From the sequence record NC_047884.1: a stretch of DNA of 64,000 nt, one strand, 5' to 3'. Shown piece by piece: positions 76-13,232 of this stretch. Positions within the stretch are counted from its first letter, which is position 1; every line of letters begins with the position of its first letter. This stretch comes from Escherichia phage saus132. Under the pieces are notes generated by a model. That model was not told where the DNA came from, searched no databases, and saw nothing but the letters and a program-made list of their open reading frames with translations. Both the position numbers and the translations under genes were made by a program.

Positions 76-154
76 TGGTGGAGAATAACGGAATCGAACC
101 GTTCTGATGTCCTCGGTGCAAGCGAGGTGTCCACTCCATGCAGACCCATTCCCC
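76..154 (-). tRNA. tRNA-like gene, anticodon UGC (Ala-type G3:U70), atypical G8 and 7-nt variable loop
   Basis: Minus strand: acceptor GGGGAAT/ATTCTCC, anticodon arm CCTCG-CTTGCAC-CGAGG, T arm AACGG-TTCGATT-CCGTT, encoded CCA. Confidence 0.45.
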
Positions 155-488
155 AAAATCTTTAAGTTTACTAAGGCTATTAGCTCGGTGTGCGTATTAC
201 CCTCAGACATTATCCAGTAGAGGATAACCGCTCTTCACAAACCCGATACACTATTCAGTTGCCGCTGAATCTAGTGGACTAATCTAGAACTTCTCCCGAG
301 TCGTAGGGATCGTGCTTTTTGGCAGCCAGTCCTAGGTCGAGCTAATACCTTAGTGAACTAAATTGATGGATATCAGACTAATTTTGCTACGGCGTTTATC
401 CTGAGGATCTCTTTTTCGGTAGCTCTGCTAGTGTAGACGTCATACACCTGATATCTAGGCAGCTATTTTCACATCAATTTATATAAAT

Positions 489-517
489 ATTATAACAAGA
501 AATTAAGCATTAAGCAA
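489..517 (-). promoter_or_regulatory. sigma70-type early promoter with conserved downstream UTR; drives ORF-free region and tRNA-Ala genes
   Basis: Minus strand -35 TTGCTT, 17-bp spacer, -10 TATAAT. Confidence 0.55.
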
Positions 518-869
518 GTACATTTTTAGCGATTTCTTGTAGTTCCTTAACGTCGCTAACGAAAAGGTAATCAGAGCTTCCAGAGTGCATACTCTGCATA
601 ACCACACCACCATCCGGTGCATCTTCTTTCAAAGTAATACCTAACCAGAACTTGGCAAAACTAGGTGTTACCTCACCTTGACTTGCCTTGAACACATCGC
701 CTTCTGTGATCTCTTGACCAGTGGAGAGTCCCATGTATGGTACGTTCAGATCAATATCTTTGTAGAACTCAGCTAGATCTTGCTCGAAATCCCAACCTTT
801 AGAGATAGCGAACTCCATTGTTACATGACCGAAATAGCCTTGAACCTTGCTTGATAATTGCATTTGCAA
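510..869 (-). CDS. hypothetical protein (119 aa)
   Basis: Clean ORF on the strand of flanking tRNA genes; no recognisable motif. Confidence 0.5.
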   Translation of the reverse strand: MQMQLSSKVQGYFGHVTMEFAISKGWDFEQDLAEFYKDIDLNVPYMGLSTGQEITEGDVFKASQGEVTPSFAKFWLGITLKEDAPDGGVVMQSMHSGSSDYLFVSDVKELQEIAKNVLA

Positions 870-888
870 TTCCTTATTTTGAGTTAAT

Positions 889-962
889 TGGTACTCGGTG
901 ATAGAATCGAACTATCGCAACCGCCGTGTAAAGACGGGGTTCTCCCATTAAACTAACCGAGC
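889..962 (-). tRNA. tRNA-Val (UAC)
   Basis: Acceptor GCTCGGT/ACCGAGT, anticodon arm CCGTC-TTTACAC-GGCGG, T arm GATAG-TTCGATT-CTATC, CCA encoded. Confidence 0.6.
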
Positions 963-1095
963 AAAAGACGTCCTATAATATAGGCTTCAACTACAAATTC
1001 ACAGAAACCTGCTAAAAACATACCTATTGTAAAATCGGCAGAGAATACATAGGAATCTTTTATTTTCTGCTTCATTAAGTAAAACCAGATAGTCA

Positions 1096-1413
1096 TTAAA
1101 ATCTCTCCATTCTAAAGCCAATGAAGTAAGGTGCATTACATGGAACATGCTTAAGATCTTTAAGAGTAATTTTACGTCCTAAGCGTCGTTCCATACAAGT
1201 GAAACATAGAACAATATCTTTGGGCTGCTCTTTTCTTATCTGATCCCAGACCCAATCTTCAACCATACACATTTCATGGTATTGTTCACAGTCTCGACAA
1301 TAGTGACACTGATGTTCTGGTACTTTTTGATTTTTAATACACAGTTCAGTAAAGCGTTTTCCGGCTCTGCCAGACATTTCTGATATTGTTTCTAGAACTT
1401 TGTTAATATTCAT
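1096..1413 (-). CDS. Cys/His-rich small protein (105 aa), probable zinc binding
   Basis: ORF with HxCHYCxxC and CFTC clusters. Confidence 0.5.
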   Translation of the reverse strand: MNINKVLETISEMSGRAGKRFTELCIKNQKVPEHQCHYCRDCEQYHEMCMVEDWVWDQIRKEQPKDIVLCFTCMERRLGRKITLKDLKHVPCNAPYFIGFRMERF

Positions 1414-1430
1414 AACAAATTCCTTTAAAT

Positions 1431-1509
1431 TGGTAGACCGCCTGGGACTCGAACCCAGAACCTTCCGGTTAAAAGCCGGGTGCTGCTAAACCAATTGAGC
1501 TAGCGATCT
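1431..1509 (-). tRNA. tRNA-Lys (UUU)
   Basis: Acceptor AGATCGC/GCGGTCT, anticodon loop CTTTTAA, T arm CTGGG-TTCGAGT-CCCAG, CCA encoded. Confidence 0.7.
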
Positions 1510-1511
1510 AT

Positions 1512-1676
1512 TTAGTACATATATACTTCTTTAATAGAGTAGACTTTTAAGTAAGGATGATTAATACCAAATTCCGCCATCACTTCGTTTTCATCTTTAC
1601 CGTAATGGGCTAGTGGATACTTCTTACGATCTTTGCTAGAACGTAGATCACTTACTTTTAAGCGAAATAATTTCAT
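1512..1676 (-). CDS. small hypothetical protein (54 aa)
   Basis: ATG with weak SD between two tRNA genes; hand-translated MKLFRLKVSDLRSSKDRKKYPLAHYGKDENEVMAEFGINHPYLKVYSIKEVYMY; below track cutoff. Confidence 0.3.
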   Translation of the reverse strand: MKLFRLKVSDLRSSKDRKKYPLAHYGKDENEVMAEFGINHPYLKVYSIKEVYMY

Positions 1677-1697
1677 TTCGAAATCCTTCTATTAAAT

Positions 1698-1775
1698 TGG
1701 AAGCGGGTGTAGGAATCGAACCTACCTCTTTCTAGCTTATGAGACTAGCGATCTCTACCAGAGATCTAACCCGCA
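1698..1775 (-). tRNA. tRNA with CAU anticodon (Met or Ile2)
   Basis: D stem GATC/GATC, anticodon arm CTAGT-CTCATAA-GCTAG, T arm GTAGG-TTCGATT-CCTAC, CCA encoded; 1-72 pair imperfect. Confidence 0.55.
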
Positions 1776-1781
1776 ATTGTT

Positions 1782-1859
1782 TGGTCTCCGTGGGAGGATT
1801 TGAACCCCCGACCCTACCGCCCCAAACGGAACGCTCTGGCCAAACTGAGCTACACGGAG
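1782..1859 (-). tRNA. tRNA-Pro (UGG)
   Basis: Acceptor CTCCGTG/CACGGAG, anticodon loop TTTGGGG (G37), T arm GGGGG-TTCAAAT-CCTCC, CCA encoded; one U-U mismatch in anticodon stem. Confidence 0.55.
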
Positions 1860-2336
1860 AATATTATCTTTTTAACCATAGTAAGGTTATACCTAACATG
1901 GTAAATCCAGTACCCAGCCCAATACTTTTTTCTATGAAATTGAAGGTATCAGTATTGACTGCGGTAATTAGTATAGGTATAGACCATAGTACCATGAATA
2001 CTTGAGCTATCTTATATTTCACTTTGCTTTCCTTCTTAACATTTTATAAGATATATTATACAGAGAATTAAGCAAAGTAGCAAATGAATTTTTAATAAAT
2101 TTACTTATTGCGTAGGCCACCTGGAGGGTTCAAGCCCCACGGCTGACAAAGAAGTTTGCGAGACTTCTCTTAAACGCCAGAATAGACCCGCCGATCTATC
2201 GGAACCTACTCAATAAGTAAACTTTCATTTACTTACACCTACCTGGTCGGGAGGATTTTCAGCGACTAGAACCGGCCGGAAACTCATCGCCTTGTTTATC
2301 TAGGAGTCCGTTCTCTAGGAAGCAGAAACCTAAATT

Positions 2337-2410
2337 TGGTGCGGTCGGAGGGAATCGAACCCTCAACTTCTGGTTGGCAACCAAAAATTATACCTTTTAA
2401 CTACGAACGC
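2337..2410 (-). tRNA. tRNA-Gly (GCC)
   Basis: Anticodon arm TTTGG-TTGCCAA-CCAGA, T arm GAGGG-TTCGATT-CCCTC, CCA encoded. Confidence 0.65.
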
Positions 2411-2608
2411 ATAATAAGTCAATCTAGGCAGGACTTGAACCTGCTATCACTTGTGCGGATTTACGAGAACCATTCTTTCACTCGAATCGAACGAGCTTCT
2501 ACCCTCGGCAAGCTGGTGTCCCCTCTCCACCACGCTAGAATGTTTGATAAAGAGTCCGGTGTAGCAATCCGTAAGGGTGCACCTACTGTAGCCTTTACTC
2601 TTTAAATT

Positions 2609-2685
2609 TGGTACACCCACTAGGACTTGAACCTAGAACCCTCCGCTTAAGAGGCGGTAGCTCTAACCATTGAGCTATGGATGTA
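2609..2685 (-). tRNA. tRNA with anticodon CUU (Lys-decoding); identity uncertain
   Basis: Acceptor ACATCCA/TGGGTGT, D stem GCTC/GAGC, anticodon arm ACCGC-CTCTTAA-GCGGA (27-43 mismatch), T arm CTAGG-TTCAAGT-CCTAG, CCA encoded. Confidence 0.5.
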
Positions 2686-2690
2686 TTATT

Positions 2691-2767
2691 TGGCGCGACC
2701 GATGGGATTCGAACCCACATTCTCTCCCGTGACAGGGGAGTACCATTACCAAGCCAGCCCCGATCGC
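2691..2767 (-). tRNA. tRNA-Asp (GUC)
   Basis: Acceptor GCGATCG/CGGTCGC, anticodon arm CTCCC-CTGTCAC-GGGAG, T arm GTGGG-TTCGAAT-CCCAT, CCA encoded. Confidence 0.75.
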
Positions 2768-2776
2768 ATAATTTGT

Positions 2777-2962
2777 TTACTCAGCTTTGAGTTTTTCGAT
2801 AGCTTCCTCAACCTCTTTTAGAGCTTCACGACGTGCATTCTGTTGCTGCATATCTTGAATTAATGTCAGTTTTTGGTTTTCAATTTCTTGATCCCAAACC
2901 TTAATATTATTAATCAGACTATCACGATCAGCTTCTAGTCGAGCAATTGCACGAGTTGTCAT
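2777..2962 (-). CDS. small coiled-coil protein (61 aa)
   Basis: ORF immediately upstream of a tRNA block, same strand. Confidence 0.4.
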   Translation of the reverse strand: MTTRAIARLEADRDSLINNIKVWDQEIENQKLTLIQDMQQQNARREALKEVEEAIEKLKAE

Positions 2963-3065
2963 ATCTATTTCCTCAGTTGTTAATGAAAAATGGTATCTGT
3001 GACTGAATTCGATATCAGCAATGATAGCTGGTTGGCTACCGGTTTACTTAACTCTACACAGAATT

Positions 3066-3143
3066 TGGCGGTTCCTGCTGGATTCGAACCAGCAACCCTC
3101 AACTTAACAAGATGCCGCTCTAACCAATTAGAGCTAAGGAACC
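3066..3143 (-). tRNA. tRNA-Asn (GUU)
   Basis: Acceptor GGTTCCT/AGGAACC, D stem GCTC/GAGC, anticodon loop TTGTTAA, T arm GCTGG-TTCGAAT-CCAGC; anticodon stem has mismatches. Confidence 0.55.
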
Positions 3144-3638
3144 ATATAAGTCAGAACTAGAGTTAATACGTTCTAGATATTTACTAAGATCCCTAGAATT
3201 TATACTAAACCACTCATGTTCTTTTAAGTCTTTGAAATATTGGTGAATTTGTTTTTCACCTTTTCGTTTGTCAAACCAAAACGACCAATGCTCTAGTTTA
3301 TAGTCCCTATAAGGACTATAAGTTTGATACTGAGCTAATCTCTCTTTTGGATTTTGACTCATACCTATTTTATACTGGTTTTTCCATGCAGGATTACTGA
3401 TACAGTATACAAAACCTTCAGAAATAGGAAGCTTATTTTCCTGTTTAAACTTTATAAAGGAAAGTGCGGCAAGTTTCCTCGAATACAGAGTATTTGTATT
3501 CTTTTTGGTATTACCACTGGTTCCTGAAAGATTTATATACTCTTCCATAAATCTTTGGATTAGTTCTGTGGTTATGTAGAAAGGCTCATTAGTAACAATG
3601 CCTTTCTCTACCAAGCTGTCAAAAACTTTTGTATGCAC
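3120..3638 (-). CDS. T5orf172-domain (GIY-YIG-like) protein, 172 aa
   Basis: Motif GFVYCISNP...YKIGMSQNPKERLAQY matches the T5orf172 consensus as recalled; 3' end overlaps tRNA-Asn by about 24 nt. Confidence 0.55.
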   Translation of the reverse strand: MHTKVFDSLVEKGIVTNEPFYITTELIQRFMEEYINLSGTSGNTKKNTNTLYSRKLAALSFIKFKQENKLPISEGFVYCISNPAWKNQYKIGMSQNPKERLAQYQTYSPYRDYKLEHWSFWFDKRKGEKQIHQYFKDLKEHEWFSINSRDLSKYLERINSSSDLYGSLALIG

Positions 3639-3659
3639 TACTTCTTTCCTTTAGTAATT

Positions 3660-3734
3660 TGGAGCATCCTGTTGGAATTGAACCAACCTAGACGATTTTG
3701 CAGACCGTCACCTAAGCCACTCGGACAAGGATGC
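3660..3734 (-). tRNA. tRNA-Cys (GCA)
   Basis: Acceptor GCATCCT/AGGATGC, anticodon arm ACGGT-CTGCAAA-ATCGT, T arm GTTGG-TTCAATT-CCAAC, CCA encoded. Confidence 0.65.
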
Positions 3735-3737
3735 AAA

Positions 3738-4010
3738 TTAATCTACTTCACACATATCATCATAGCCACAAGTTGGGCATTCCCAATGACATTCGTCATG
3801 CTCACCGCATTGAGCACATTCATAAATCTTTGGCTTTTCAACTTCTTCTAGATTAATAAATTCTAGATCATCGAAGTTACCAATGGATCTGGCATAGTAA
3901 CCATCGCCTGCGTCATAACCTGATTTACCACACTCACACATCTTAAACTCACGCAGATGTGTGAAGATATGTTCAGAGCCACAACACTTAAATTTAACTA
4001 ACTTTTTCAT
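3738..4010 (-). CDS. Cys-rich zinc-ribbon protein (90 aa)
   Basis: Several CxxC pairs (CCGSEH, CECG, CAQCG, CPTCG); early promoter immediately upstream. Confidence 0.5.
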   Translation of the reverse strand: MKKLVKFKCCGSEHIFTHLREFKMCECGKSGYDAGDGYYARSIGNFDDLEFINLEEVEKPKIYECAQCGEHDECHWECPTCGYDDMCEVD

Positions 4011-4038
4011 TTGCTTCTCCAGTTCAATTTATGTAATA

Positions 4039-4067
4039 ATTATACAGAACTTTAAGCGGTTAAGCAA
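4039..4067 (-). promoter_or_regulatory. early promoter cassette
   Basis: Minus strand -35 TTGCTT, 17 bp, -10 TATAAT. Confidence 0.55.
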
Positions 4068-4347
4068 CTACATTTTTCAGAAATATGATGCCTTTCTTTT
4101 TCTTCTTATACTTCCACGTTAACGGGTTCTGTCGATTATGAACGCTTGAGATCTTTGTCTCGTCAAAGTTCTTCAATACCATGTAATCACAGGCCAACTG
4201 TTCTAGTGGAATGTGATCTCCGTCAAAAGCGTAAACGTAAGGCTGTTGACTGGCACGATAATGATAGACTTTGTTAATTCTGCGTTTCAGTGACTTATCC
4301 GCACAGTAAATAAAGAAGTTTTCAGGATGCATCAGCATCTCCTTCAA
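4060..4347 (-). CDS. hypothetical protein (95 aa)
   Basis: ORF; no recognisable motif. Confidence 0.45.
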   Translation of the reverse strand: MKEMLMHPENFFIYCADKSLKRRINKVYHYRASQQPYVYAFDGDHIPLEQLACDYMVLKNFDETKISSVHNRQNPLTWKYKKKKKGIIFLKNVVA

Positions 4348-4349
4348 AT

Positions 4350-4424
4350 TGGTGCACCCTGTTCGAATTGAACGAACCTCTCAAGCTCTTCAGGCAAGCG
4401 CTAATCCATCTCAGCTAAAGGTGC
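4350..4424 (-). tRNA. tRNA-Phe (GAA)
   Basis: Acceptor GCACCTT/AGGGTGC, D stem GCTG/TAGC, anticodon loop CTGAAGA, T arm GTTCG-TTCAATT-CGAAC; two U-U mismatches in anticodon stem. Confidence 0.55.
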
Positions 4425-4430
4425 AAATAT

Positions 4431-4508
4431 TGGCAAACCTACTAGGACTCGAACCTAGACCGTACGGTTTTGGAGACCGACATGCTGTCCAGTAACACTC
4501 TAGGAATG
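4431..4508 (-). tRNA. tRNA-Trp (CCA); acceptor stem poorly paired
   Basis: Anticodon arm TCGGT-CTCCAAA-ACCGT, T arm CTAGG-TTCGAGT-CCTAG, CCA encoded; 5' boundary approximate. Confidence 0.45.
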
Positions 4509-4515
4509 CAGAAAT

Positions 4516-4592
4516 TGGCGTCCTGTGCGGGGATCGAACCCGCAAATCCTACCTTGAAAGGGTAGTGACTTTACCAGTTTGTCTAACAGGAC
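4516..4592 (-). tRNA. tRNA-Glu (UUC)
   Basis: Acceptor GTCCTGT/ACAGGAC, anticodon arm CTACC-CTTTCAA-GGTAG, T arm GCGGG-TTCGATC-CCCGC, CCA encoded. Confidence 0.8.
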
Positions 4593-4599
4593 TTAAATT

Positions 4600-4690
4600 T
4601 GGTGTTGGATGATGGAGTCGAACCACCCGAGACCCTTCCGAGTCGGCAGATTTACAGTCTACTTCGCTACCTCTACGATACTAATCCAAC
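4600..4690 (-). tRNA. tRNA-Tyr (GUA), long variable arm
   Basis: Acceptor GTTGGAT/ATCCAAC, anticodon arm GTAGA-CTGTAAA-TCTGC, long variable arm, T arm GGTGG-TTCGACT-CCATC, 91 nt with CCA. Confidence 0.75.
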
Positions 4691-4814
4691 ATATTTGAAT
4701 GAAAAGTAAGTCGGTTAAACTCAAGGTGGAATATTTCAGGATTTCCTGACTTTACCCCTAAAAGCAACTCGCTTAATTACTTCTCATTCAGATATGTTTC
4801 CAAATTAGATAAAT

Positions 4815-4843
4815 ATTATATCAAGTTTTAAGGCACTGAGCAA
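4815..4843 (-). promoter_or_regulatory. promoter for tRNA block Tyr-Glu-Trp-Phe; -35 overlaps a 12-bp-stem hairpin (4833-4871)
   Basis: Minus strand -35 TTGCTC, 17 bp, -10 TATAAT; inverted repeat GCACTGAGCAAG/CTTGCTCAGTGC. Confidence 0.5.
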
Positions 4844-4879
4844 GTCAAATTTTAAAGAACTTGCTCAGTGCTGTATCAG

Positions 4880-5173
4880 TTAATCAAATGAAGGAGTGAC
4901 TTTCAAAGTGAATGGAAGTTCGAATACCTCTTCACCTTCATCAGTAACAGTGACTACTCGACCCTCTAGCTTATTCATGCTGATTTCAACATCAGCCGTA
5001 GCATCAGGAGCCATACCAGCCTCAATACATTGAGCTTTGATCTCTGGAAGAAGTTCTACATTGTAGAAATAAAGCCACTCGATCTCACCTTCCCAACCAC
5101 CCCAGGATTTACATACTGAGCTTTCAATACCAGTTGCTGCAAAACGTTTTAACATTCTGATTCCTCTCATCAA
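4880..5173 (-). CDS. hypothetical protein (97 aa)
   Basis: ORF downstream of early promoter cassette. Confidence 0.5.
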   Translation of the reverse strand: MMRGIRMLKRFAATGIESSVCKSWGGWEGEIEWLYFYNVELLPEIKAQCIEAGMAPDATADVEISMNKLEGRVVTVTDEGEEVFELPFTLKVTPSFD

Positions 5174-5184
5174 CTTATATAACT

Positions 5185-5214
5185 ATTATAGCAGAAATCT
5201 TAAGCAAAAAGCAA
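5185..5214 (-). promoter_or_regulatory. early promoter cassette
   Basis: Minus strand -35 TTGCTT, 18 bp, -10 TATAAT. Confidence 0.5.
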
Positions 5215-5244
5215 GTACATTTTTAAAATTTCTGCTTGGAGGAG

Positions 5245-5517
5245 TTAAACTCCTGATTCTTCAGCCAGATCAAGCCCAACCAATGTGATTGCCATAATAG
5301 CCGCGCCATGTTCTTTCTCTCCTAGCTCTTTGGCTTGAGTGAGAATATTGAGGAATTGCTTTTGAAAATCTGCAACTTCTTCTGTCATGCCTGCTTCAGC
5401 AATAATTCCTTTCAGCATAAAGCGTTGTGCCGTAATTTCAGGATTAGCCATTTGTTTTCTCCAGTTATTTAGAATGTAAGCCAAACTTAGGATCATAGCG
5501 ATCGTAAGTAGTACCAT
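5245..5517 (-). CDS. hypothetical protein (90 aa)
   Basis: ORF; hydrophobic N-terminal segment. Confidence 0.45.
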   Translation of the reverse strand: MVLLTIAMILSLAYILNNWRKQMANPEITAQRFMLKGIIAEAGMTEEVADFQKQFLNILTQAKELGEKEHGAAIMAITLVGLDLAEESGV

Positions 5518-5602
5518 TAGTTGAAGCCTTGATGCTATGAAAACGACAATACATAAATTTACGCAGTGCTTTCTTAATAGCTTTCATTTTATTTCCTTAA
5601 TT

Positions 5603-5679
5603 TGGTAGGGGTGGTGGGATTCGAACCCACAAAACCTGAATTTTAAGTCCAGTACCTATGCCAATTCGATTACACCCCC
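5603..5679 (-). tRNA. tRNA with anticodon UAA (Leu-decoding) but short variable loop (type I)
   Basis: Acceptor GGGGGTG/CACCCCT, A73, anticodon arm CTGGA-CTTAAAA-TTCAG, T arm GTGGG-TTCGAAT-CCCAC, CCA encoded. Confidence 0.55.
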
Positions 5680-5687
5680 ATGTAATC

Positions 5688-6041
5688 TTAGCGAATCTCT
5701 AAACCCTGGAAATATCGAGGGAATGGAGAGCCAACTTCAAAATTGATGCCCCAGTTAAGTTCAACGAGTTCAGATTTATTAAGATCTAGGCCATTACCTT
5801 CAAAGATATAGCCGTAAACCGCAGGGAACATAGCTGCTAGATCTTCCATATCGGAATGAGCATTGTGTTCTTCACGTAACTGCTCAAACTCTTCAAAGAA
5901 CTTTTCTAGGAAGAACTCAGGTACGATGAACGTTACCACATCAGTAGAATCATCAGTACGATACACCGTAGCTTGGAACAAGCCAACACCTAAAAGGTTT
6001 ATTGCCGGAGTAGTAAAAATATCCATCTTAACCTCGCTCAA
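5688..6041 (-). CDS. hypothetical protein (117 aa)
   Basis: ORF; no recognisable motif. Confidence 0.45.
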   Translation of the reverse strand: MSEVKMDIFTTPAINLLGVGLFQATVYRTDDSTDVVTFIVPEFFLEKFFEEFEQLREEHNAHSDMEDLAAMFPAVYGYIFEGNGLDLNKSELVELNWGINFEVGSPFPRYFQGLEIR

Positions 6042-6213
6042 TGTCTAGAGAAATACCACATTCAGGATTAATACCAGAACCATTACAATATGTACAAACG
6101 TATGTATTATACCGTGTATCACCGGGTTCAGCATCGTTCCACTCACCTACTCCGAAGCATTTTGGGCAGGCACACTCTTCTAGCTCTTGCTTGAGTTCTT
6201 GAAATTTGGACAT
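6028..6213 (-). CDS. small zinc-finger protein (61 aa)
   Basis: CPKCFGVGEW and CTYCNGSG resemble DnaJ-type CxxCxGxG zinc finger repeats. Confidence 0.45.
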   Translation of the reverse strand: MSKFQELKQELEECACPKCFGVGEWNDAEPGDTRYNTYVCTYCNGSGINPECGISLDIERG

Positions 6214-6221
6214 ATAGTCTC

Positions 6222-6410
6222 CTAGTTAATTACTTTTGAGGCTTCTAAAGCATTGACGTAGTAAACGTCTTCTACTTTATACATATAGTCTACTACTTTG
6301 TCCATAGCATGTAGTTCAGATGTAGCCTTTACTAGTCTGTACCCTTGTTTAAACTCGTCCGAATGTTCTCTATCTTGTGCAAATTTAACAGAAACTATGA
6401 ATAATTCCAT
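6222..6410 (-). CDS. hypothetical protein (62 aa)
   Basis: ORF; no recognisable motif. Confidence 0.4.
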   Translation of the reverse strand: MELFIVSVKFAQDREHSDEFKQGYRLVKATSELHAMDKVVDYMYKVEDVYYVNALEASKVIN

Positions 6411-6429
6411 TAGTTGTCCTTATTTAATT

Positions 6430-6507
6430 TGGTGGCTCCCGGAGGATTCGAACCTACCTACCTTTCGCTTATGAGGCGACGGCTCATACCAAATGAGCTT
6501 GAGAACC
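6430..6507 (-). tRNA. tRNA with CAU anticodon (Met or Ile2), second copy
   Basis: Acceptor GGTTCTC/GGGAGCC, D stem GCTC/GAGC, anticodon arm GTCGC-CTCATAA-GCGAA, T loop TTCGAAT, CCA encoded. Confidence 0.6.
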
Positions 6508-6512
6508 AAATT

Positions 6513-6606
6513 TGGAGGAAGATGCCAGATTCGAACTGGCACACCGTGTCTCCACAGCTACTGGCTGTTTAGCAAACAGCTCCCTTACCTTTAGGGTTAA
6601 TCTTCC
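6513..6606 (-). tRNA. tRNA-Ser (GCU), long variable arm
   Basis: Acceptor GGAAGAT/ATCTTCC, anticodon arm GCTGT-TTGCTAA-ACAGC, long variable arm, T arm GCCAG-TTCGAAT-CTGGC, 94 nt with CCA. Confidence 0.8.
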
Positions 6607-7616: not shown

Positions 7617-8309
7617 TTATTTGTTAACGCGTACAAAGTATCCTTTATAGGCTCCCATAATAGAGTTACCTAAGAATACTAGCCACATTGCTAGGATTGC
7701 ATAAGATGCACCTGTAGATTGAGCAGTTACAAGCCAAATGTATACAGTACCAATGTTAATAGCAATCCAGATCAGCCATTGTTCAGCATATTGTTTGACC
7801 ATAAGCCACATAGCAATCACACTACCAACCGCAGTAAATGCGTCAAGCATTGGGAATGGATCAGCGGTAGTAGCAAGGAAGCTGCCGTAACCTAAAGTAG
7901 CTACTGCTAGAATCCCTAGAGTCAGCAGAGCTTGGGCTTTAGTCAGAACCTTAGTTGGAACATCTGGCAGATTACTTGGCTTATTTTTATGCCATAAGTA
8001 CATTCCATAAAACTGCATAGGAACGTAGTATAGCAGGTTTAGTGCAGCGTTACCATAAAGATCTGCGTTTAAAGCTGTAATACCATATGTAAGAACACCC
8101 ACTAAGCCCCAAATATAGTTGGAAACACGTCCTTTTGCAACCAGAATAACACAAACCACATTGGTTATTGCAGTAGCCCAATCTAGAGCTGTACCATTAT
8201 AGTTTGCTAAACTAATGAAGACAACCGCTATGAACAGCCACAGATATTCCAGAGGTTTCCAGTTTTTAAAGTCATTTACGAGATAGTTAGTCATATTAAA
8301 ACTCTCCAA
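7617..8309 (-). CDS. pnuC: PnuC-like nicotinamide riboside transporter (230 aa)
   Basis: Size and multi-helix hydrophobic profile typical of PnuC; directly downstream of and overlapping the NadR-like gene. Confidence 0.65.
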   Translation of the reverse strand: MESFNMTNYLVNDFKNWKPLEYLWLFIAVVFISLANYNGTALDWATAITNVVCVILVAKGRVSNYIWGLVGVLTYGITALNADLYGNAALNLLYYVPMQFYGMYLWHKNKPSNLPDVPTKVLTKAQALLTLGILAVATLGYGSFLATTADPFPMLDAFTAVGSVIAMWLMVKQYAEQWLIWIAINIGTVYIWLVTAQSTGASYAILAMWLVFLGNSIMGAYKGYFVRVNK

Positions 8310-9351
8310 CGTTAAAGTGATGAATCAGCCAGTCTACTGCGTTTACTGCTTCGTCCATACGAACTTTGTAGTCCGGGGAGTCGATGTAAACAGTACGCCC
8401 TTCAGGGAACTGATTTGGAAATTCTTTCTTCATCTGCTCGAACAGTTCAGAAGTAATTGAACGATCGGAGTTAATACGTAAACCATCATCTACCCACTTG
8501 ACAGTAGGCGCTAGAACAATTACTAAATCGTAATGTTCTTCTTTTGCAATTGCTGTAACCACAGGGTTCTTACTATGTTCATAAAGTCTGTGGTAGAACT
8601 CAGTAATAAAAGCATTTGTATCCACAAACATGATCTTATTTGCAGTACGTTCTGCTTCAAACTCTAGCTCTTTGTGTCTGAACGCAATTTTACTATAGTC
8701 TTCGCTGGTAAGCAGATTTTCGTTACCAACTAGATCAACTTCACAATACGTTCGGCCATATTCTTCTACCCACGAAGTGTTGTATAGCTTCGCAAGGTAT
8801 TTTGTTAAAGTAGTCTTTCCTGAGCTTTCAGTCCCAATGATTACAACCTTACGCACGTAATCTTTACGAACTACGCTAGGAAGAAACTCCCAATACTTCA
8901 TAAGATCATTACGAATCATTGTAGCTGAGATTGGAACACGAGTCCGATCAGAATCTACAATATAATGACCAAACTTCGGCAGATATTTCTTATATTCTGC
9001 ATCATAGTCTAGTTCGCTAGAGAAAATGGTGATCTCAGGCAAATGTCCGTAATTTTCATTAAGGATTCTAGCATATTCCGGCCAACCATTCGGATATTCA
9101 GGAATATCATCTTCAATAGTGTACTCTACCGAAATGTGCTCAATATCCGCGTAAGTTTGTTCTAACCAACGAAGTCGATTCTTTAACTGTAATACTTCCT
9201 GATCACGTGTGTTCTGCTTATCCAACCAACGATTATCATGACTAACTACAACAATAACTCGTTCACACATAGTTGCTGCTGTGTTTATTAGGTTAATATG
9301 ACCACGCGTTAATGGTGCGAACTTACCAATTACTAGACCAGTCTTAATCAT
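8296..9351 (-). CDS. nadR: NadR-like bifunctional NMN adenylyltransferase / ribosylnicotinamide kinase
   Basis: N-terminal GKFAPLTRGH nucleotidyltransferase motif; C-terminal P-loop GTESSGKTTL; start taken at ATG after SD, not the track start inside the promoter. Confidence 0.75.
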   Translation of the reverse strand: MIKTGLVIGKFAPLTRGHINLINTAATMCERVIVVVSHDNRWLDKQNTRDQEVLQLKNRLRWLEQTYADIEHISVEYTIEDDIPEYPNGWPEYARILNENYGHLPEITIFSSELDYDAEYKKYLPKFGHYIVDSDRTRVPISATMIRNDLMKYWEFLPSVVRKDYVRKVVIIGTESSGKTTLTKYLAKLYNTSWVEEYGRTYCEVDLVGNENLLTSEDYSKIAFRHKELEFEAERTANKIMFVDTNAFITEFYHRLYEHSKNPVVTAIAKEEHYDLVIVLAPTVKWVDDGLRINSDRSITSELFEQMKKEFPNQFPEGRTVYIDSPDYKVRMDEAVNAVDWLIHHFNVGEF

Positions 9352-9381
9352 ATTTGATTCCTCTCTCAAATTTATAAATAT

Positions 9382-9410
9382 ATTATACAGAGAATTTAGC
9401 ATTCAAGCAA
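9382..9410 (-). promoter_or_regulatory. early promoter cassette for nadR-pnuC operon
   Basis: 29-nt block identical to the cassette at 7541; -35 TTGCTT, 17 bp, -10 TATAAT. Confidence 0.65.
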
Positions 9411-9562: not shown

Positions 9563-9601
9563 TACAGAAAAGCCCGCGCTCTCGGAGGAAACGCGGGCTT
9601 A
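9563..9601 (-). terminator. rho-independent terminator after SPFH gene
   Basis: GC-rich hairpin AAGCCCGCG...CGCGGGCTT then U-run on minus strand. Confidence 0.7.
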
Positions 9602-9623: not shown

Positions 9624-10568
9624 TTACTTATTACGCATATCCATAATCATCTGGCCATCATAACCAGTACCTACAACAGTCTGAGGAACGCCACCCTGAT
9701 ATTTTTCAGCGCGTTTCATATCAACTTCCAGCTGTTTCCAGCGAATCATCTCTGGAGTGATGGTACGCTGCAGAGCGGTGTTAGCTTCAGCTTCTTTCTT
9801 AGCCGCATACAGTTTAGCATCTGCGTCACGTTCGTTAGCTACTGCCATATTTTCACGAGCAGAACGATCAGCCTCAGCTTGCTTAACTTTCTGCTGTGCT
9901 TCTTGTTCAACACGAGCTAGTTCAGCTTTTGCAGCGTTAACTTGTTCTTCACGAACTTTGGTGTTTTGTACCTGTTCCATGATTACCGGTGGCAGAGTAA
10001 TATCCTGAAGGAATACTTGCTTAACGGTGTAGCCATAAGGACGCGCATACTCTTCTACTTCTTGCTGAATAGCGGTTTGCAGTTGAGCCTGAATCTTAGC
10101 GTCGAACAGATCTTGTGCTTTTGGTACAGACTTACCAAACTCACGAATCGTAGACAGCATCTTCTCTTCAACGTACTTGTTCAGAGCTTGATCCTGAGTA
10201 CCTGCGTTAACACGGTTCATAGGAGCTTTAGCACCATCAAACTGCAACATAACGGTAATGTCAACTGTAGACTTAAACTTATCCTGGCTAGGAACCTGAA
10301 GTTTATCCAGTTTCATAGAAATATCTTTCGTACTAAAAGTATCAAAAGAGGCGAATGGGTTGACAATATGGAACCCCGGCAATACAGGATTAGGACTAAC
10401 TTTACCCAGGAAAGTCTGAGTTTTAACCGTACCGTCCTGAACAACTGTATAGGAATTGAGAGCCAGAATAAGAGCGCCAAGACCAACTACAGCACCAACA
10501 CCCCAACGTTTAATAGTACGAATTACTTTTTGATCGGAAGTCAGTTCTTTAGTGTTTTTAGTAAACAT
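9624..10568 (-). CDS. SPFH/band-7 (HflK/C, prohibitin-like) membrane protein
   Basis: N-terminal TM helix, central SPFH-like region, C-terminal Ala/Glu/Gln-rich coiled coil; rho-independent terminator downstream. Confidence 0.6.
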   Translation of the reverse strand: MFTKNTKELTSDQKVIRTIKRWGVGAVVGLGALILALNSYTVVQDGTVKTQTFLGKVSPNPVLPGFHIVNPFASFDTFSTKDISMKLDKLQVPSQDKFKSTVDITVMLQFDGAKAPMNRVNAGTQDQALNKYVEEKMLSTIREFGKSVPKAQDLFDAKIQAQLQTAIQQEVEEYARPYGYTVKQVFLQDITLPPVIMEQVQNTKVREEQVNAAKAELARVEQEAQQKVKQAEADRSARENMAVANERDADAKLYAAKKEAEANTALQRTITPEMIRWKQLEVDMKRAEKYQGGVPQTVVGTGYDGQMIMDMRNK

Positions 10569-10579
10569 ATATTTCCTTA

Positions 10580-10780
10580 TTATTTAGAAGAGTTAGCTAC
10601 TACAGTTACTTTAGTTGCAGAAATAAACAGGCTAGCATCCACAGCAAATTCAGGAGCTTTGATATCTCCGTTATGAAATATGACTATACCGGAGACTACT
10701 TCAAATGCTAGCGCTGTAACATCGGTGGTATTTACTTGTGAATGTTCACCTACTACTTTTACTATATATCGTGTTTTCAC
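10580..10780 (-). CDS. hypothetical protein (66 aa)
   Basis: Short ORF between SPFH gene and tRNA-Arg. Confidence 0.35.
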   Translation of the reverse strand: MKTRYIVKVVGEHSQVNTTDVTALAFEVVSGIVIFHNGDIKAPEFAVDASLFISATKVTVVANSSK

Positions 10781-10806: not shown

Positions 10807-10881
10807 TGGCCGAGGTGACAGGATTCGAACCTGCATAAAGGAATTTAGAAGACTCCTGCCTATCCCTTAGACTACACCCCG
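10807..10881 (-). tRNA. tRNA-Arg (UCU)
   Basis: Acceptor CGGGGTG/CACCTCG, anticodon arm GGAGT-CTTCTAA-ATTCC, T arm GCAGG-TTCGAAT-CCTGT, CCA encoded. Confidence 0.7.
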
Positions 10882-11740
10882 TTTAGGTATTTTTAAGAAC
10901 TCTTATAAAAGCTCTTAAAGATACCCGACGGTAGGTAGGGTCAGCCCCCTCAGATTAAGCTCTGCAGCCCTTCCGTCAGACAATATCTTCCAGTTTAAGT
11001 CAGGGTGACTTTGTGGTTATGTTCTCCGTATGTGAAGAACTCGGTTAGGCTTAGGTCATGACTCCCAGCCTACTGCTGCCGCTCAACAGGAATTATCGCG
11101 AATTACCTGTACTATTGGGCACCATTAGTGACATCTCTCATGTCAGCGTTTCCCACTCTCATATTCACGCGGTCTGTTAGAATCGCACCTCCGATTTTCG
11201 ATGCGAAGCTGGATGCCTAGTCTCAGGTTAAACGGGGCACACACTAGGCAGTGATCCCGAGTTCCGAGTTTGGTTGAGGCCGTCAGGTTTCCTCGTGGTT
11301 TAGCTGTTTCGATTCTAACCTAATACTGATCAGGTGGCGTACCTCCTGAACTGTCATAGTATGTACTCCAGCAGCGAATGCTTATCCGGTATAAGCCCGA
11401 GTTATCTGATTCTTTCCGACCGCAGGATTCGAACCTGCATCTTCCACCAGTTACGGTTTGATATTACCGTTTATACTAGGACGGCAGTGTTATCACATAA
11501 GTCAGTTCGACACCCCACTAACATAAACTAGAGAAGAGTTTACGAGATTTCGGGACAGCTCCCGAGTTTTCCGCAGATTTTCAGTTCCCTATCAATAGCA
11601 ATAAGCGTTAGCTCGTAGCCTCTCTCAGAGTACTTACTAGTCTCCAACTCACCGACTCTATTCAGTGGAATAGCTATCCTAGTAGGAATCACTAAACTCA
11701 CTCAGCGTAATCGGCTCGCTGTTCTCTAATTTATGAATCT

Positions 11741-11769
11741 ATTATACAGAATTTTGAGGCGTTTAGCAA
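11741..11769 (-). promoter_or_regulatory. early promoter facing an 860-nt ORF-free region and tRNA-Arg
   Basis: Minus strand -35 TTGCTA, 17 bp, -10 TATAAT. Confidence 0.6.
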
Positions 11770-12459: not shown

Positions 12460-12927
12460 TTAAGTTTTCTTAACCACAGGCTTGTAGAATGTATGGCCTT
12501 GAATCTTCGTTGTTTTCTTAAACTTCTTTGTCCAGTACGGTTTATCTTTACCACTATGGAAGTATAACGCTCCATGTGTTGGATCTTGTGGTAAATCAAC
12601 GTAGTATATCACTCTAGCTAAATTCTTAGCAACTTGCCAAGCCTCATCGGTTTTATCAACTTTTGGTCTCCTGGCCACCCAAGAGAACTGGTTAGACTGA
12701 TATACTACTTTACAGTAAGAATCAGGAAAAGTACCAGAGTTAACACGGTTTTTAGTAACCTGTGCAACTGCGATCATTCCTTTAGTGCCCTCACCTCGTG
12801 CTTCGAAGTAGATATTTTTTGCAATGCAATCAATCTGCTTTGAGTCGTAGGTCGCATGACTATTGAAGCTATAGGTTAGGGCAGCTATTAAAAGCAAAGC
12901 TGCCTTCATTTTATTTACTCCGGCCAA
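12460..12927 (-). CDS. secreted cell-wall hydrolase, SleB/CwlJ-like
   Basis: Signal peptide MKAALLLIAALTYSFNSHA; NIYFEARGE motif characteristic of SleB-type hydrolase domain. Confidence 0.55.
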   Translation of the reverse strand: MAGVNKMKAALLLIAALTYSFNSHATYDSKQIDCIAKNIYFEARGEGTKGMIAVAQVTKNRVNSGTFPDSYCKVVYQSNQFSWVARRPKVDKTDEAWQVAKNLARVIYYVDLPQDPTHGALYFHSGKDKPYWTKKFKKTTKIQGHTFYKPVVKKT

Positions 12928-13232
12928 TCGTACTCAATACGATTAGGGCTTTCTTGATACCCTTCGTCTAAGAGATCATTACGCATGGTCTCTTTAGCTA
13001 CTGGGTTCGAGGTTACTAGTACCACTTTCTTGGGTCTCTGACCAAATTCTAGGAGTAAACGAAGAATTTGATAACCTTCCATACCATCTACAGCCAGATC
13101 GTTATCCATATAAACGAAATGACCTGTGGTATCGGTTTTATTCAGAAACTCAACAGCGGCTTCGGGGGTTCGAATGATAATGTCCATTCCATGAAGGTTA
13201 CGCACATCATCAATCAGAATATGAAAAATCAT
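12915..13232 (-). CDS. hypothetical protein (105 aa)
   Basis: ORF downstream of early promoter cassette. Confidence 0.5.
   Translation of the reverse strand: MIFHILIDDVRNLHGMDIIIRTPEAAVEFLNKTDTTGHFVYMDNDLAVDGMEGYQILRLLLEFGQRPKKVVLVTSNPVAKETMRNDLLDEGYQESPNRIEYDWPE

What the first reader, a model, noticed from the sequence alone, without database searches (positions are those of the whole stretch)
9624..10568. SPFH/band-7 membrane scaffold protein encoded next to the NAD+ salvage operon
Seen in sequence: single N-terminal TM helix, SPFH-like core, long Ala/Glu/Gln coiled coil, own terminator. Established knowledge: SPFH proteins organise membrane microdomains and regulate membrane proteases. 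Inference: may modulate host membrane proteases or superinfection or lysis timing.
Basis: partly seen in the sequence, partly recalled or inferred. Interest (0 to 1): 0.35.

Follow-up and report, generated by a model that had tools for sequence, protein, structure and literature searches.

The report
Phage T5-type SPFH membrane scaffold gene
The ORF is a real, strongly conserved gene for an SPFH/band-7 membrane-scaffold protein that nearly all T5-like phages carry; public records already annotate it as such, its function has never been tested, and its position next to the NAD+ salvage genes is specific to one sub-lineage.

Summary
Window 9624-10568 (- strand) encodes a 314-aa protein with one N-terminal TM helix, a Pfam Band_7 domain (72 bits against a 23.6-bit cut-off), a long Ala/Glu/Lys/Gln-rich helix, a conserved C-terminal tail and a strong terminator.

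The window is a T5-like phage (Epseptimavirus). The gene is the orthologue of T5.080. An identical protein is already annotated "SPFH/band 7" in phage bombadil.

The AlphaFold model (pLDDT 78) matches cage-forming SPFH protomers over their full length: erlin, prohibitin, HflK/C, stomatin and QmcA.

- All 28 family members examined have a positively charged N-terminus. This predicts an N-in anchor with the SPFH body in the periplasm.
- The protein has no cysteine, so the common "lipoprotein" label is wrong.
- The "HflK" label is over-specific. No NCBIfam hit was found, the gene is single-copy, and it is closer in sequence to QmcA.
- The gene is under strong purifying selection (dN/dS 0.02-0.07).
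- It is restricted to virulent phages: T5-like, T4-like and 7-11-like.
- It is absent from E. coli genomes and plasmids.

NadR/PnuC is a separate transcription unit and is present in only 4 of 31 T5-like loci. Even so, NAD+ genes, the rI antiholin or a periplasmic cell-wall hydrolase recur near the gene in other lineages.

The function remains inferred. The gene is ordinary but unexplained.

The parts
9624..10568 (-). CDS, 314 aa, phage-clade SPFH/band-7 protein (orthologue of T5.080, YP_006908.1)
   Evidence: ORF. Pfam Band_7 at 72 bits. PHROG 200, E=3.5e-85. 100% identical to proteins annotated 'SPFH domain-containing/band 7' in Salmonella phage bombadil. T5 orthologue identified.
10443..10505 (-). 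Signal-anchor TM helix (residues about 22-42), preceded by a K/R-rich N-terminus (residues 1-21)
   Evidence: Kyte-Doolittle maximum 1.8-1.9. N-terminal net charge is +2 to +6 against about 0 after the helix in all 28 homologues. The AF2 model has a helix at 10-36.
9897..10421 (-). SPFH (Band_7) alpha/beta domain, residues 50-224, including the invariant VPSQDKFK loop (residues 91-98)
   Evidence: Pfam envelope. Invariant columns. The loop aligns to IPSQE of E. coli QmcA.
9705..9992 (-). Long Ala/Glu/Lys/Gln-rich helices CC1 (193-268) and CC2 (271-288), the predicted cage wall and roof
   Evidence: AF2 secondary structure. Composition and 3.5-residue periodicity. Homologues differ here only by insertions of exactly 11 or 22 residues.
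9627..9704 (-). Conserved C-terminal tail (residues 289-314, consensus Y-x-GGVPQTVVG-x-x-Y-x-G-x-MIMDMR-x-K)
   Evidence: Mean column conservation 0.70; Y289, G291, P294, T296 and G299 are nearly invariant. The model has low confidence here, with short strands at 299-300 and 306-307.
10574..10578 (-). Shine-Dalgarno AAGGA, 5 nt before the ATG
   Evidence: Read from the sequence.
9570..9600 (-). Intrinsic terminator closing the transcription unit. It contains the GAGA|GCGC motif that marks a major nick site in T5.
   Evidence: Scan result. Fold of -23.5 kcal/mol, z=-2.9. Conserved in T5. T5 nick annotation.
10580..10780 (-). 66-aa ORF immediately upstream (its stop codon abuts the SPFH Shine-Dalgarno), PHROG 11609, unknown function. 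It is an insertion relative to T5.
   Evidence: Absent from T5. Present in only 5 of 31 T5-like loci.
10807..10881 (-). tRNA-Arg(UCU), upstream in the same transcription unit
   Evidence: ARAGORN. Rfam 49 bits. Same arrangement in T5.
11741..11769 (-). Sigma-70-type promoter TTGCTA-17-TATAAT, equivalent to T5 early promoter P16-17. It is the likely start of the unit RNAX-like RNA, tRNA-Arg, orf66, SPFH.
   Evidence: Scan, 10 of 12 matches. T5 annotation. Alignment.
7617..9402 (-). Neighbouring separate unit: NadR-type NMN adenylyltransferase/ribosylnicotinamide kinase without an HTH domain (8296-9402; annotated start in phage 8sent65 corresponds to 9351) and the PnuC transporter (7617-8309)
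   Evidence: Pfam and PHROG hits. Annotation. Present in 4 of 31 T5-like loci. Absent from T5.

Best explanation
The ORF is a genuine phage gene, the orthologue of T5.080.

**What the protein is.** It belongs to a virulent-phage-specific clade of the SPFH (stomatin/prohibitin/flotillin/HflK-C) superfamily. It has a short, positively charged cytoplasmic N-terminus, one signal-anchor TM helix and an SPFH alpha/beta domain. These are followed by a wall helix about 75 residues long built from 11-residue repeats, a second helix and a conserved C-terminal tail.

**How it most likely works (inferred).** By analogy with every SPFH protein of this architecture whose structure is solved, it most likely assembles into a homo-oligomeric ring or dome. 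The dome would sit on the periplasmic face of the host inner membrane and fence off a patch of that membrane.

**Expression (inferred from sequence and the T5 annotation).** It is the last gene of an early transcription unit: promoter, stable RNA, tRNA-Arg, orf66, SPFH, terminator.

**Relation to NAD+ salvage.** The NadR/PnuC genes downstream are a separate, lineage-specific insertion.

**What is shown and what is not.** Identity, fold, conservation and genomic organisation are shown. Topology and oligomerisation are inferred. The client enclosed is unknown; candidates are FtsH-type protease, holin/antiholin or another envelope protein, or simply membrane stabilisation during infection.
For: - **Domain and fold.** Band_7 at 72 bits. 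AF2 pLDDT 78. Foldseek full-length matches (268-305 aligned columns, probability 1.00) to erlin1/2, prohibitin, HflK/C, stomatin and QmcA cage protomers, and to other viral SPFH proteins.
- **Topology.** The positive-inside rule gives N-in in 28 of 28 homologues.
- **Helix packing.** Indels in the wall helix are exactly 11 or 22 residues. This is expected if the helix packs periodically against its neighbours.
- **Homo-oligomer.** The gene is single-copy per genome (737 places in 736 records). No NfeD-like neighbour was found.
- **Selection and age.** dN/dS is 0.02-0.07 within T5-likes. About 75% amino-acid identity to T4-like copies persists although synonymous sites are saturated.
- **Distribution.** About 432 records have a DNA match, against about 443 records with a T5-type DNA polymerase at >=80% identity. 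The gene keeps the same syntenic slot in a distant T5-like contig at 60% identity.
- **Transcription unit.**
Against: - No experiment exists on any member. The papers found say the role in phages is unclear (PMC13239085, PMC7760394; listed only as a Pfam hit in PMC1524935).
- Topology rests on the charge rule alone.
- The closest E. coli relative by sequence is QmcA (hhalign 96.5%). From my own knowledge (Chiba et al. 2006), QmcA faces the cytoplasm.
- Oligomerisation could not be modelled with the tools available.
- The C-terminal 25 residues are modelled at pLDDT below 50.
- No gene partner is conserved across all lineages, so nothing points to a client.
Confidence: 0.6

Rival explanations
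1. HflK/HflC mimic. The protein binds host FtsH in the periplasm, in place of or alongside HflK/C, and changes which membrane proteins FtsH degrades. This is the role implied by the GenBank label 'modulator of FtsH protease HflK' in phage 8sent65.
For: - The predicted topology is the same as HflC, with a weak N-terminal match to HflC (E=0.0095; probability 69% over 42 columns).
- The fold matches HflK/C chains from FtsH complexes (7vhq, 7wi3, 9cz2).
- HflK/C is the only periplasm-facing SPFH cage in E. coli (own knowledge).
Against: - No NCBIfam HflK or HflC equivalog hit, even at E<=1.
- hhalign to HflK gives 8% probability.
- Sequence is closer to QmcA and prohibitin.
- The gene is single-copy, not a K/C pair.
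- T5 and T4 are strictly virulent, so the classical HflKC/FtsH/CII lysogeny circuit is irrelevant to them.
Confidence: 0.15
2. Envelope, lysis-timing or superinfection module. The cage acts on phage or host envelope proteins (holin/antiholin, exported cell-wall hydrolase, DNA-entry sites). Its effect would be to keep the inner membrane intact and energised until programmed lysis, or to exclude superinfecting phages.
For: - In T4-like phages from 57% to 81% identity the order tk, rI antiholin (PF24205), DUF5856, SPFH is conserved.
- In Matisse the annotators place rI, DUF5856, SPFH and NMNAT between two terminators.
- An exported Hydrolase_2 cell-wall hydrolase lies within 0.4-2 kb of SPFH in T5-likes, L030, L031 and L033 and in the distant T5-like L055, and about 6 kb away in phage 7-11.
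Against: - T5-likes have no rI.
- The adjacencies can be explained by shared ancestry of mosaic blocks and by clustering of accessory genes in hyperplastic early regions.
- No lineage-independent partner was found.
Confidence: 0.15
3. Counter-defence or host-maintenance gene functionally linked to NAD+ salvage. The SPFH cage would protect the membrane against abortive-infection effectors, or support a membrane step, as part of the same accessory island as the NAD+-restoring enzymes.
For: Three different NAD+ solutions lie near the gene in three phage families.
- NadR+PnuC lies 0.2 kb downstream in this window.
- NMNAT/Nudix lies 0.2 kb downstream in enterobacterial T4-likes and 2-6 kb downstream in Aeromonas-type and other T4-likes.
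- A PRPP-synthetase-like plus NAMPT-like pair lies 2 kb downstream in phage 7-11 and 6-8 kb upstream in L033/L034.
- In T5-likes the gene lies in the tRNA/accessory region.
Against: - 27 of 31 T5-like loci, including T5 itself, have no NAD+ gene within 10 kb.
- L030, L031 and L051-L054 have none either.
- In the window a strong terminator separates the two units.
- There is no PADLOC hit.
- The enzymes are cytoplasmic while the SPFH body is predicted to be periplasmic.
- The test was made post hoc.
Confidence: 0.08
4. Cytoplasm-facing QmcA/stomatin-like scaffold (N-out/C-in), acting on the cytoplasmic side of the membrane.
For: The best sequence relative among solved structures and E. coli paralogues is QmcA (E=7e-5; E=2.8e-7; probability 96.5%, 210 columns).
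Against: - All 28 homologues have 2-7 K/R before the TM helix and about 1-2 after it. QmcA has no charged residue before its helix (sequence shown).
- There is no NfeD partner gene, unlike qmcA-ybbJ.
Confidence: 0.1
5. Lipoprotein, as annotated for T5.080 and PHROG 200.
For: Only the inherited database label.
Against: The protein has no cysteine at all, as do 25 of 28 homologues, so there is no lipobox.
Confidence: 0.01

Closest known systems
T5.080 (YP_006908.1) of phage T5 and its orthologues in Markadamsvirinae, e.g. the 'putative SPFH domain-containing protein/band 7 family protein' of Salmonella phage bombadil
   Same: It is the same gene: 91% amino-acid identity to T5 and 100% to bombadil. 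It sits in the same position after tRNA-Arg and before the conserved hairpin.
   Different: This phage has an extra 66-aa ORF between tRNA-Arg and the gene. It also has NadR/PnuC downstream where T5 has T5.077-079 on the other strand.
RB43ORF139c / 44RRORF098c / Aeh1ORF064c and Slopekvirus 'PHB/SPFH domain' proteins of T4-like phages (Nolan et al. 2006, PMC1524935)
   Same: Same phage-specific clade, 62-83% identity from the TM helix to the C-terminus, with the same architecture.
   Different: The N-terminal cytoplasmic stretch is unrelated. The genomic slot is different (after rI/DUF5856, before NMNAT/Nudix). Synonymous sites are saturated, so the sharing is ancient.
E. coli QmcA (SPFH-NfeD complex, PDB 8z5g)
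   Same: Best sequence match among solved structures and host paralogues. It shares the PSQ[DE] loop, the SPFH domain and an Ala/Glu-rich helix. It is also a homo-oligomer built from one gene.
   Different: About 18-24% identity only. The predicted membrane orientation is opposite. The phage gene has no NfeD (YbbJ) partner.
HflK/HflC-FtsH complex (PDB 7vhq, 7wi3, 9cz2)
   Same: Type II anchor with a predicted periplasmic SPFH body. The protomer shape matches over its full length.
   Different: No family-level sequence match. The phage has a single gene rather than a K/C pair. Any FtsH interaction is untested.
Eukaryotic prohibitin 1/2 and erlin 1/2 cages (PDB 8rrh, 9o9z, 9vvj, 9o9u)
   Same: Top structural matches (E 1e-12 to 1e-14). 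They share the N-terminal anchor, SPFH domain, wall helix, roof helix and a similar length of about 270-305 residues. There is weak sequence similarity to PHB1/2.
   Different: 15-20% identity. Those are hetero-oligomers of two paralogues in organelle membranes.

Membership tests
SPFH / Band 7 superfamily (Pfam PF01145) | Band_7 profile match above the curated gathering score | tested here: met
   72 bits against 23.6, E=8e-20, residues 50-224.
SPFH / Band 7 superfamily (Pfam PF01145) | SPFH alpha/beta fold followed by long helix or helices, as in solved cage protomers | tested here: met
   AF2 pLDDT 78. Foldseek probability 1.00 with 268-305 aligned columns to erlin, prohibitin, HflK/C, stomatin and QmcA.
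SPFH / Band 7 superfamily (Pfam PF01145) | Membrane attachment at the N-terminus | tested here: met
   One hydrophobic helix at residues about 22-42, present in all 28 homologues.
SPFH / Band 7 superfamily (Pfam PF01145) | Assembly into a large ring or cage | not testable with these tools
   Only monomer prediction was available. Indirect support comes from 11- and 22-residue indels in the wall helix and the conserved C-terminal tail.
HflK/HflC (FtsH modulators) | Match to the HflK or HflC family models or sequences | tested here: not met
   NCBIfam gave 0 families at E<=1. hhalign to E. coli HflK gave 8% probability, and to HflC 69% over 42 N-terminal columns only.
HflK/HflC (FtsH modulators) | Two paralogous subunits encoded together | tested here: not met
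   One copy per phage genome. No second copy in the window.
HflK/HflC (FtsH modulators) | N-in anchor with the SPFH domain in the periplasm | tested here: inconclusive
   The positive-inside rule predicts N-in in 28 of 28 homologues. There is no experimental topology.
HflK/HflC (FtsH modulators) | Physical association with FtsH | not testable with these tools
   Needs pull-down or structure work.
Stomatin/QmcA-type SPFH with NfeD partner | Adjacent NfeD-family gene | tested here: not met
   Neighbouring ORFs give no NfeD Pfam hit. No partner is shared between lineages. Compare qmcA-ybbJ in E. coli.
Stomatin/QmcA-type SPFH with NfeD partner | Sequence relationship to QmcA | tested here: met
   hhalign 96.5%, E=9e-10, 210 columns. 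PDB profile search E=2.8e-7.
Flotillin (FloT/YqiK type) | Long protein (over 400 aa) with an extended flotillin EA-repeat domain | tested here: not met
   The protein is 314 aa. Flotillin chains are weaker Foldseek matches, TM-score by target 0.32-0.34.
Bacterial lipoprotein (label on T5.080 and PHROG 200) | Lipobox ending in an invariant cysteine after the signal peptide | tested here: not met
   No cysteine anywhere in the protein, nor in 25 of 28 homologues.
Known anti-phage defence proteins (PADLOC) | Match to a defence-system model | tested here: not met
   Only a spurious DpdA hit at E=0.18.

The most novel reading that the evidence does not exclude
The virulent-phage SPFH clade may be a virus-built periplasmic membrane cage with a dedicated infection role. 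That role would be tied either to lysis-inhibition and envelope control, or to the accessory and counter-defence islands that also carry NAD+-restoring enzymes.
- In T4-likes it sits in one unit with the rI antiholin.
- Three different NAD+ salvage solutions lie beside it in three phage families.

If so, it would be the first SPFH scaffold shown to be deployed by a virus to remodel a bacterial membrane.
Probability: 0.12. Interest if true: 0.65.

Novelty: already known. Interest (0 to 1): 0.28.

Why it matters
SPFH cages (HflK/C, prohibitin, erlin, stomatin, flotillin) have only recently been understood structurally, and what they enclose is still debated.

This is a single-gene, phage-specific version. 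It is kept under strong purifying selection in nearly all T5-like phages and is shared with T4-like and other virulent phages.

That makes it a simple, genetically tractable system for asking what such a cage does, because a phage deletion mutant has an easily measured phenotype.

As a genome-scan finding it is not new. Identical proteins are already labelled SPFH/band 7.

The practical gains here are:
- correcting two misleading labels ('lipoprotein' and 'HflK');
- defining the transcription unit;
- documenting that the link to NAD+ salvage is not general.

Tried and rejected
- **NCBIfam scan.** No family at E<=1, so no equivalog naming is possible.
- **PADLOC scan.** No meaningful hit.
- **Literature.** 'T5.080' returned 0 papers. 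Searches for SPFH with phage T5, phage-encoded, anti-phage or superinfection found only passing mentions and no functional study. The T5-like phiR2-01 proteogenomics paper does not mention the gene. A T5 transcriptomics search gave nothing usable.
- **NfeD-like partner idea for the upstream 66-aa ORF.** There is no Pfam hit. Single-sequence AF2 gave pLDDT 42, too poor for a fold search. The ORF is absent from T5 and from most T5-likes. Rejected as a general partner.
- **Second SPFH paralogue (heteromer idea).** None in the window, and one place per record in the phage collection.
- **Prophage, plasmid or host origin.** No DNA match in 5,426 complete E. coli genomes and no tblastn match in 72,556 plasmids. 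More distant relatives at 28-50% identity are mostly unnamed metagenomic proteins. One, at 28% identity, sits on a 6.5-Mb contig.
- **Universal conserved neighbour.** All-against-all comparison of ORFs within 10 kb in 10 lineages found none. Apart from antisense shadow ORFs, only Hydrolase_2 recurs, in 5 lineages.
- **Lipoprotein reading.** Rejected because the protein has no cysteine.
Full report
**Observation.** The window is a T5-like phage. The 1.4 kb around the finding is 100% identical to 'Bacteriophage T5-like chee130_1' and 99.9% identical to Salmonella phages bombadil and 8sent65 (genus Epseptimavirus, Demerecviridae). ORF 9624..10568 on the - strand encodes 314 aa behind an AAGGA ribosome-binding site.
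- One hydrophobic helix lies at residues about 22-42.
- A Pfam Band_7/SPFH domain scores 72 bits against a 23.6-bit cut-off.
- An Ala/Glu/Lys/Gln-rich helix covers residues 193-288.
- A 12-bp G+C-rich hairpin with a T-rich tail lies at 9600..9570 on the coding strand. Its fold is -23.5 kcal/mol, z=-2.9.

**The gene is real and constrained.**
- Against other T5-likes, dN/dS is 0.02-0.07.
- Against T4-like, 7-11-like and Aeromonas-phage copies, the protein stays 56-76% identical over the full-length alignments although synonymous sites are saturated. The sharing between phage families is therefore old and the protein is strongly constrained.
- tblastn finds the protein in 736 phage records, one copy each.
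- DNA-level matches occur in 432 records. About 443 records carry a T5-type DNA polymerase at >=80% identity, so nearly all Markadamsvirinae have the gene.
- A distant T5-like contig (60% identity) keeps it in the same slot, after Hydrolase_2 and YqeY.
- It is absent from 5,426 complete E. coli genomes at the DNA level and from 72,556 plasmids at the protein level.
- Among 5.8 billion clustered proteins, the closest 120 relatives sit on phage-sized contigs or carry phage names. A few carry bacterial names on phage-sized contigs of 174-178 kb.
- More distant relatives are mostly unnamed metagenomic sequences.

**Anatomy.** An AlphaFold2 model built from 28 homologues (pLDDT 78) shows these elements:
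- an N-terminal helix;
- the SPFH beta/alpha body;
- one unbroken helix at 193-268;
- a second helix at 271-288;
- a poorly resolved tail with two short strands.

Foldseek aligns it over 268-305 columns, at probability 1.00, to cage-forming protomers of erlin1/2, prohibitin, HflK/C, stomatin and QmcA. It also matches other viral SPFH proteins.

Conservation is low in the N-terminus (0.26), moderate in the TM helix (0.48) and high everywhere else (0.70-0.78), including the tail.

Homologues differ in the wall helix only by insertions of exactly 11 or 22 residues that repeat the motif A-x-A-x-x-[FY]-A-x-[KR]-[QK]-x-A-E. That is what one expects of a helix packing periodically against neighbouring helices. 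I take it as indirect support for ring or cage assembly, which could not be modelled directly.

The invariant VPSQDKFK loop aligns with IPSQE of QmcA. It is therefore a general SPFH feature, not a phage novelty.

**Topology and labels.**
- All 28 homologues carry 2-7 Lys/Arg before the TM helix and 1-3 (mostly 1-2) in the 15 residues after it. The positive-inside rule therefore predicts N-in, with the SPFH body in the periplasm. This is the orientation of HflC, prohibitin and erlin, and from my own knowledge (Chiba et al. 2006) the opposite of QmcA.
- The protein has no cysteine. The 'lipoprotein' label inherited from T5.080 and PHROG 200 therefore cannot be right.
- The label 'modulator of FtsH protease HflK' is over-specific. 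NCBIfam gives nothing. hhalign gives 8% to E. coli HflK and 69% over only 42 N-terminal columns to HflC, but 96.5% over 210 columns to QmcA. PDB sequence searches rank QmcA and prohibitins first.
- There is one gene, not a K/C pair, and no NfeD partner.

The protein is thus a member of the SPFH superfamily. It is not demonstrably a member of the HflK/C, stomatin-NfeD or flotillin subfamilies.

**Transcription context.** Alignment with T5 and the curated T5 annotation place the gene at the end of an early unit. In order, the unit consists of:
- promoter TTGCTA-17-TATAAT at 11769..11741 (equivalent to T5 P16-17);
- a region of about 850 nt homologous to the T5 'RNAX' stable RNA, containing a tRNA-like element at 11414-11485 (Rfam tRNA, 29.3 bits);
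- tRNA-Arg at 10807-10881;
- a 66-aa ORF that T5 lacks;
- the SPFH gene;
- the terminator.

In T5 the 3' arm of the equivalent hairpin carries the annotated major single-strand interruption (GAGA|GCGC). The motif is conserved in the window at 9576-9583.

**The NAD+ neighbourhood.** NadR (NMNAT plus ribosylnicotinamide kinase domains, no HTH) and PnuC lie directly downstream, but beyond the terminator. T5 has different genes on the other strand at this position.

Of 31 T5-like loci examined, only 4 have NadR/PnuC within 10 kb.

NAD+ genes do nevertheless recur near the SPFH gene elsewhere:
- NMNAT/Nudix lies about 0.2 kb downstream in all enterobacterial T4-like loci.
- The same gene lies 2-6 kb downstream in Aeromonas-type and other T4-likes.
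- A PRPP-synthetase-like plus NAMPT-like pair lies 2 kb downstream in phage 7-11 and 6-8 kb upstream in two 90-kb phages.

Five other lineages have none. I regard this as suggestive co-location in accessory-gene islands, not as evidence of a functional unit. The test was post hoc and accessory genes cluster anyway.

**Other recurrent neighbours.**
- In T4-like phages the order tk, rI antiholin (PF24205), DUF5856, SPFH is conserved from 57% to 81% SPFH identity.
- An exported SleB-type Hydrolase_2 cell-wall hydrolase (window 12460-12927, with a signal peptide) lies within 0.4-2 kb of SPFH in four lineages and about 6 kb away in phage 7-11.

Both neighbours act in the envelope, which fits a periplasm-facing protein. 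Shared mosaic ancestry is an adequate alternative explanation.

**Mechanism.**
- *Shown:* identity, fold class, single-copy status, purifying selection, phage-restricted distribution and the organisation of the transcription unit.
- *Inferred:* N-in topology, homo-oligomeric dome on the periplasmic face, and early expression.
- *Unknown:* the client.

My best reading is a phage-made SPFH cage that fences a patch of inner membrane during infection. The specific sub-hypotheses are FtsH modulation (about 0.15), envelope, lysis-timing or superinfection control (about 0.15), a counter-defence or NAD-linked role (about 0.08), and a cytoplasm-facing QmcA-like scaffold (about 0.1).

The literature I could search treats phage SPFH proteins as unexplained (PMC13239085, PMC7760394; first listed for T4-like phages in PMC1524935).

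**Verdict.** It is also already present in public annotation of identical proteins, so as a discovery it is ordinary.

What this work adds:
- correction of two labels;
- the predicted topology;
- the 11-residue indel rule;
- the evidence that the NAD+ adjacency is lineage-specific;
- a short list of testable roles.

Interest is modest.

Noticed in passing
window 9570-9600 (motif at 9576-9583, - strand): The hairpin that terminates the SPFH unit contains GAGA|GCGC. In T5 this exact position (39746/39747, 32.6% of the genome) is annotated as a major single-strand DNA interruption. The nick site and the terminator stem therefore overlap and are conserved together.
   Followed up: partly
window 10882-11740 (- strand), tRNA-like element at 11414-11485: This region is homologous to the 719-nt T5 'RNAX' stable RNA of unknown function. 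It lies between the early promoter and tRNA-Arg. It contains a tRNA-like element that Rfam scores at 29.3 bits (the gathering score is 29) and that ARAGORN did not call. The window also has an insertion of about 180 nt relative to T5 just after the promoter.
   Followed up: partly
window 10580-10780 (- strand): A 66-aa beta-rich ORF (PHROG 11609, unknown function) is inserted between tRNA-Arg and the SPFH gene, with its stop codon abutting the SPFH ribosome-binding site. It is absent from T5 and present in only 5 of 31 T5-like loci. The single-sequence AF2 model was unusable (pLDDT 42).
   Followed up: partly
window 12460-13232 (- strand): An exported SleB-type cell-wall hydrolase (Pfam Hydrolase_2, signal peptide; annotated 'endolysin' in T5 as T5.083) is preceded by a cREC_REC 'cyclic-phosphate processing receiver' domain protein (T5.084 homologue). 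This two-gene pair recurs next to the SPFH gene, in a different order, in an unrelated 90-kb phage (L033 11194-12015). There it also lies near an RtcB-like gene.
   Followed up: partly
L003 3170-6069 (Klebsiella phage Matisse); L057 7275-12376: In T4-like phages the SPFH gene sits in the conserved run tk, rI antiholin, DUF5856, SPFH, (0-4 genes), NMNAT/Nudix. In Matisse the annotators place the four genes rI, DUF5856, SPFH and NMNAT between two terminators.
   Followed up: partly
L004 3865-4783 / L046 10080-10922 (Salmonella phage 7-11): The SPFH gene of phage 7-11 is annotated as two CDSs (the N-terminal TM part and the rest). tblastn covers only residues 55-314. This may be a frameshift, a pseudogene or a sequencing error.
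   Followed up: no
L030 7341-11823 (153-kb IMG/VR contig): Here the SPFH gene lies in the run TelA (toxic anion resistance), unassigned 215-aa ORF (no Pfam hit), PRTase_3 (ComF-like), SPFH, a 117-aa ORF with a short repeated Gly/Val-rich motif (no Pfam hit), then Hydrolase_2. Part of this resembles Ter-type stress-response gene clusters.
   Followed up: no
window 8296-9402 (- strand): The NadR-type protein has only the NMNAT (CTP_transf_like) and AAA_28 kinase domains, with no HTH. The mechanical ORF is 368 aa, but the annotated start in phage 8sent65 corresponds to window 9351 (351 aa, behind GAGGAA). That leaves about 220 nt of promoter region after the SPFH terminator.
   Followed up: partly
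window 76-6606 (- strand): A cluster of 17 tRNA genes lies downstream of the NAD+ genes, typical of the T5 tRNA/accessory region. A bioRxiv preprint (10.1101/2023.03.15.532788) reports that tRNA-Tyr and a protein called Rad, from the T5 phage family, counter retron defence.
   Followed up: no
window 9942-10676 (+ strand): A 244-aa ORF lies antisense to the SPFH gene. It is a shadow ORF. Equivalent antisense ORFs appear opposite the gene in 9 of the 10 lineage groups compared, simply because the sense frame is conserved.
   Followed up: yes
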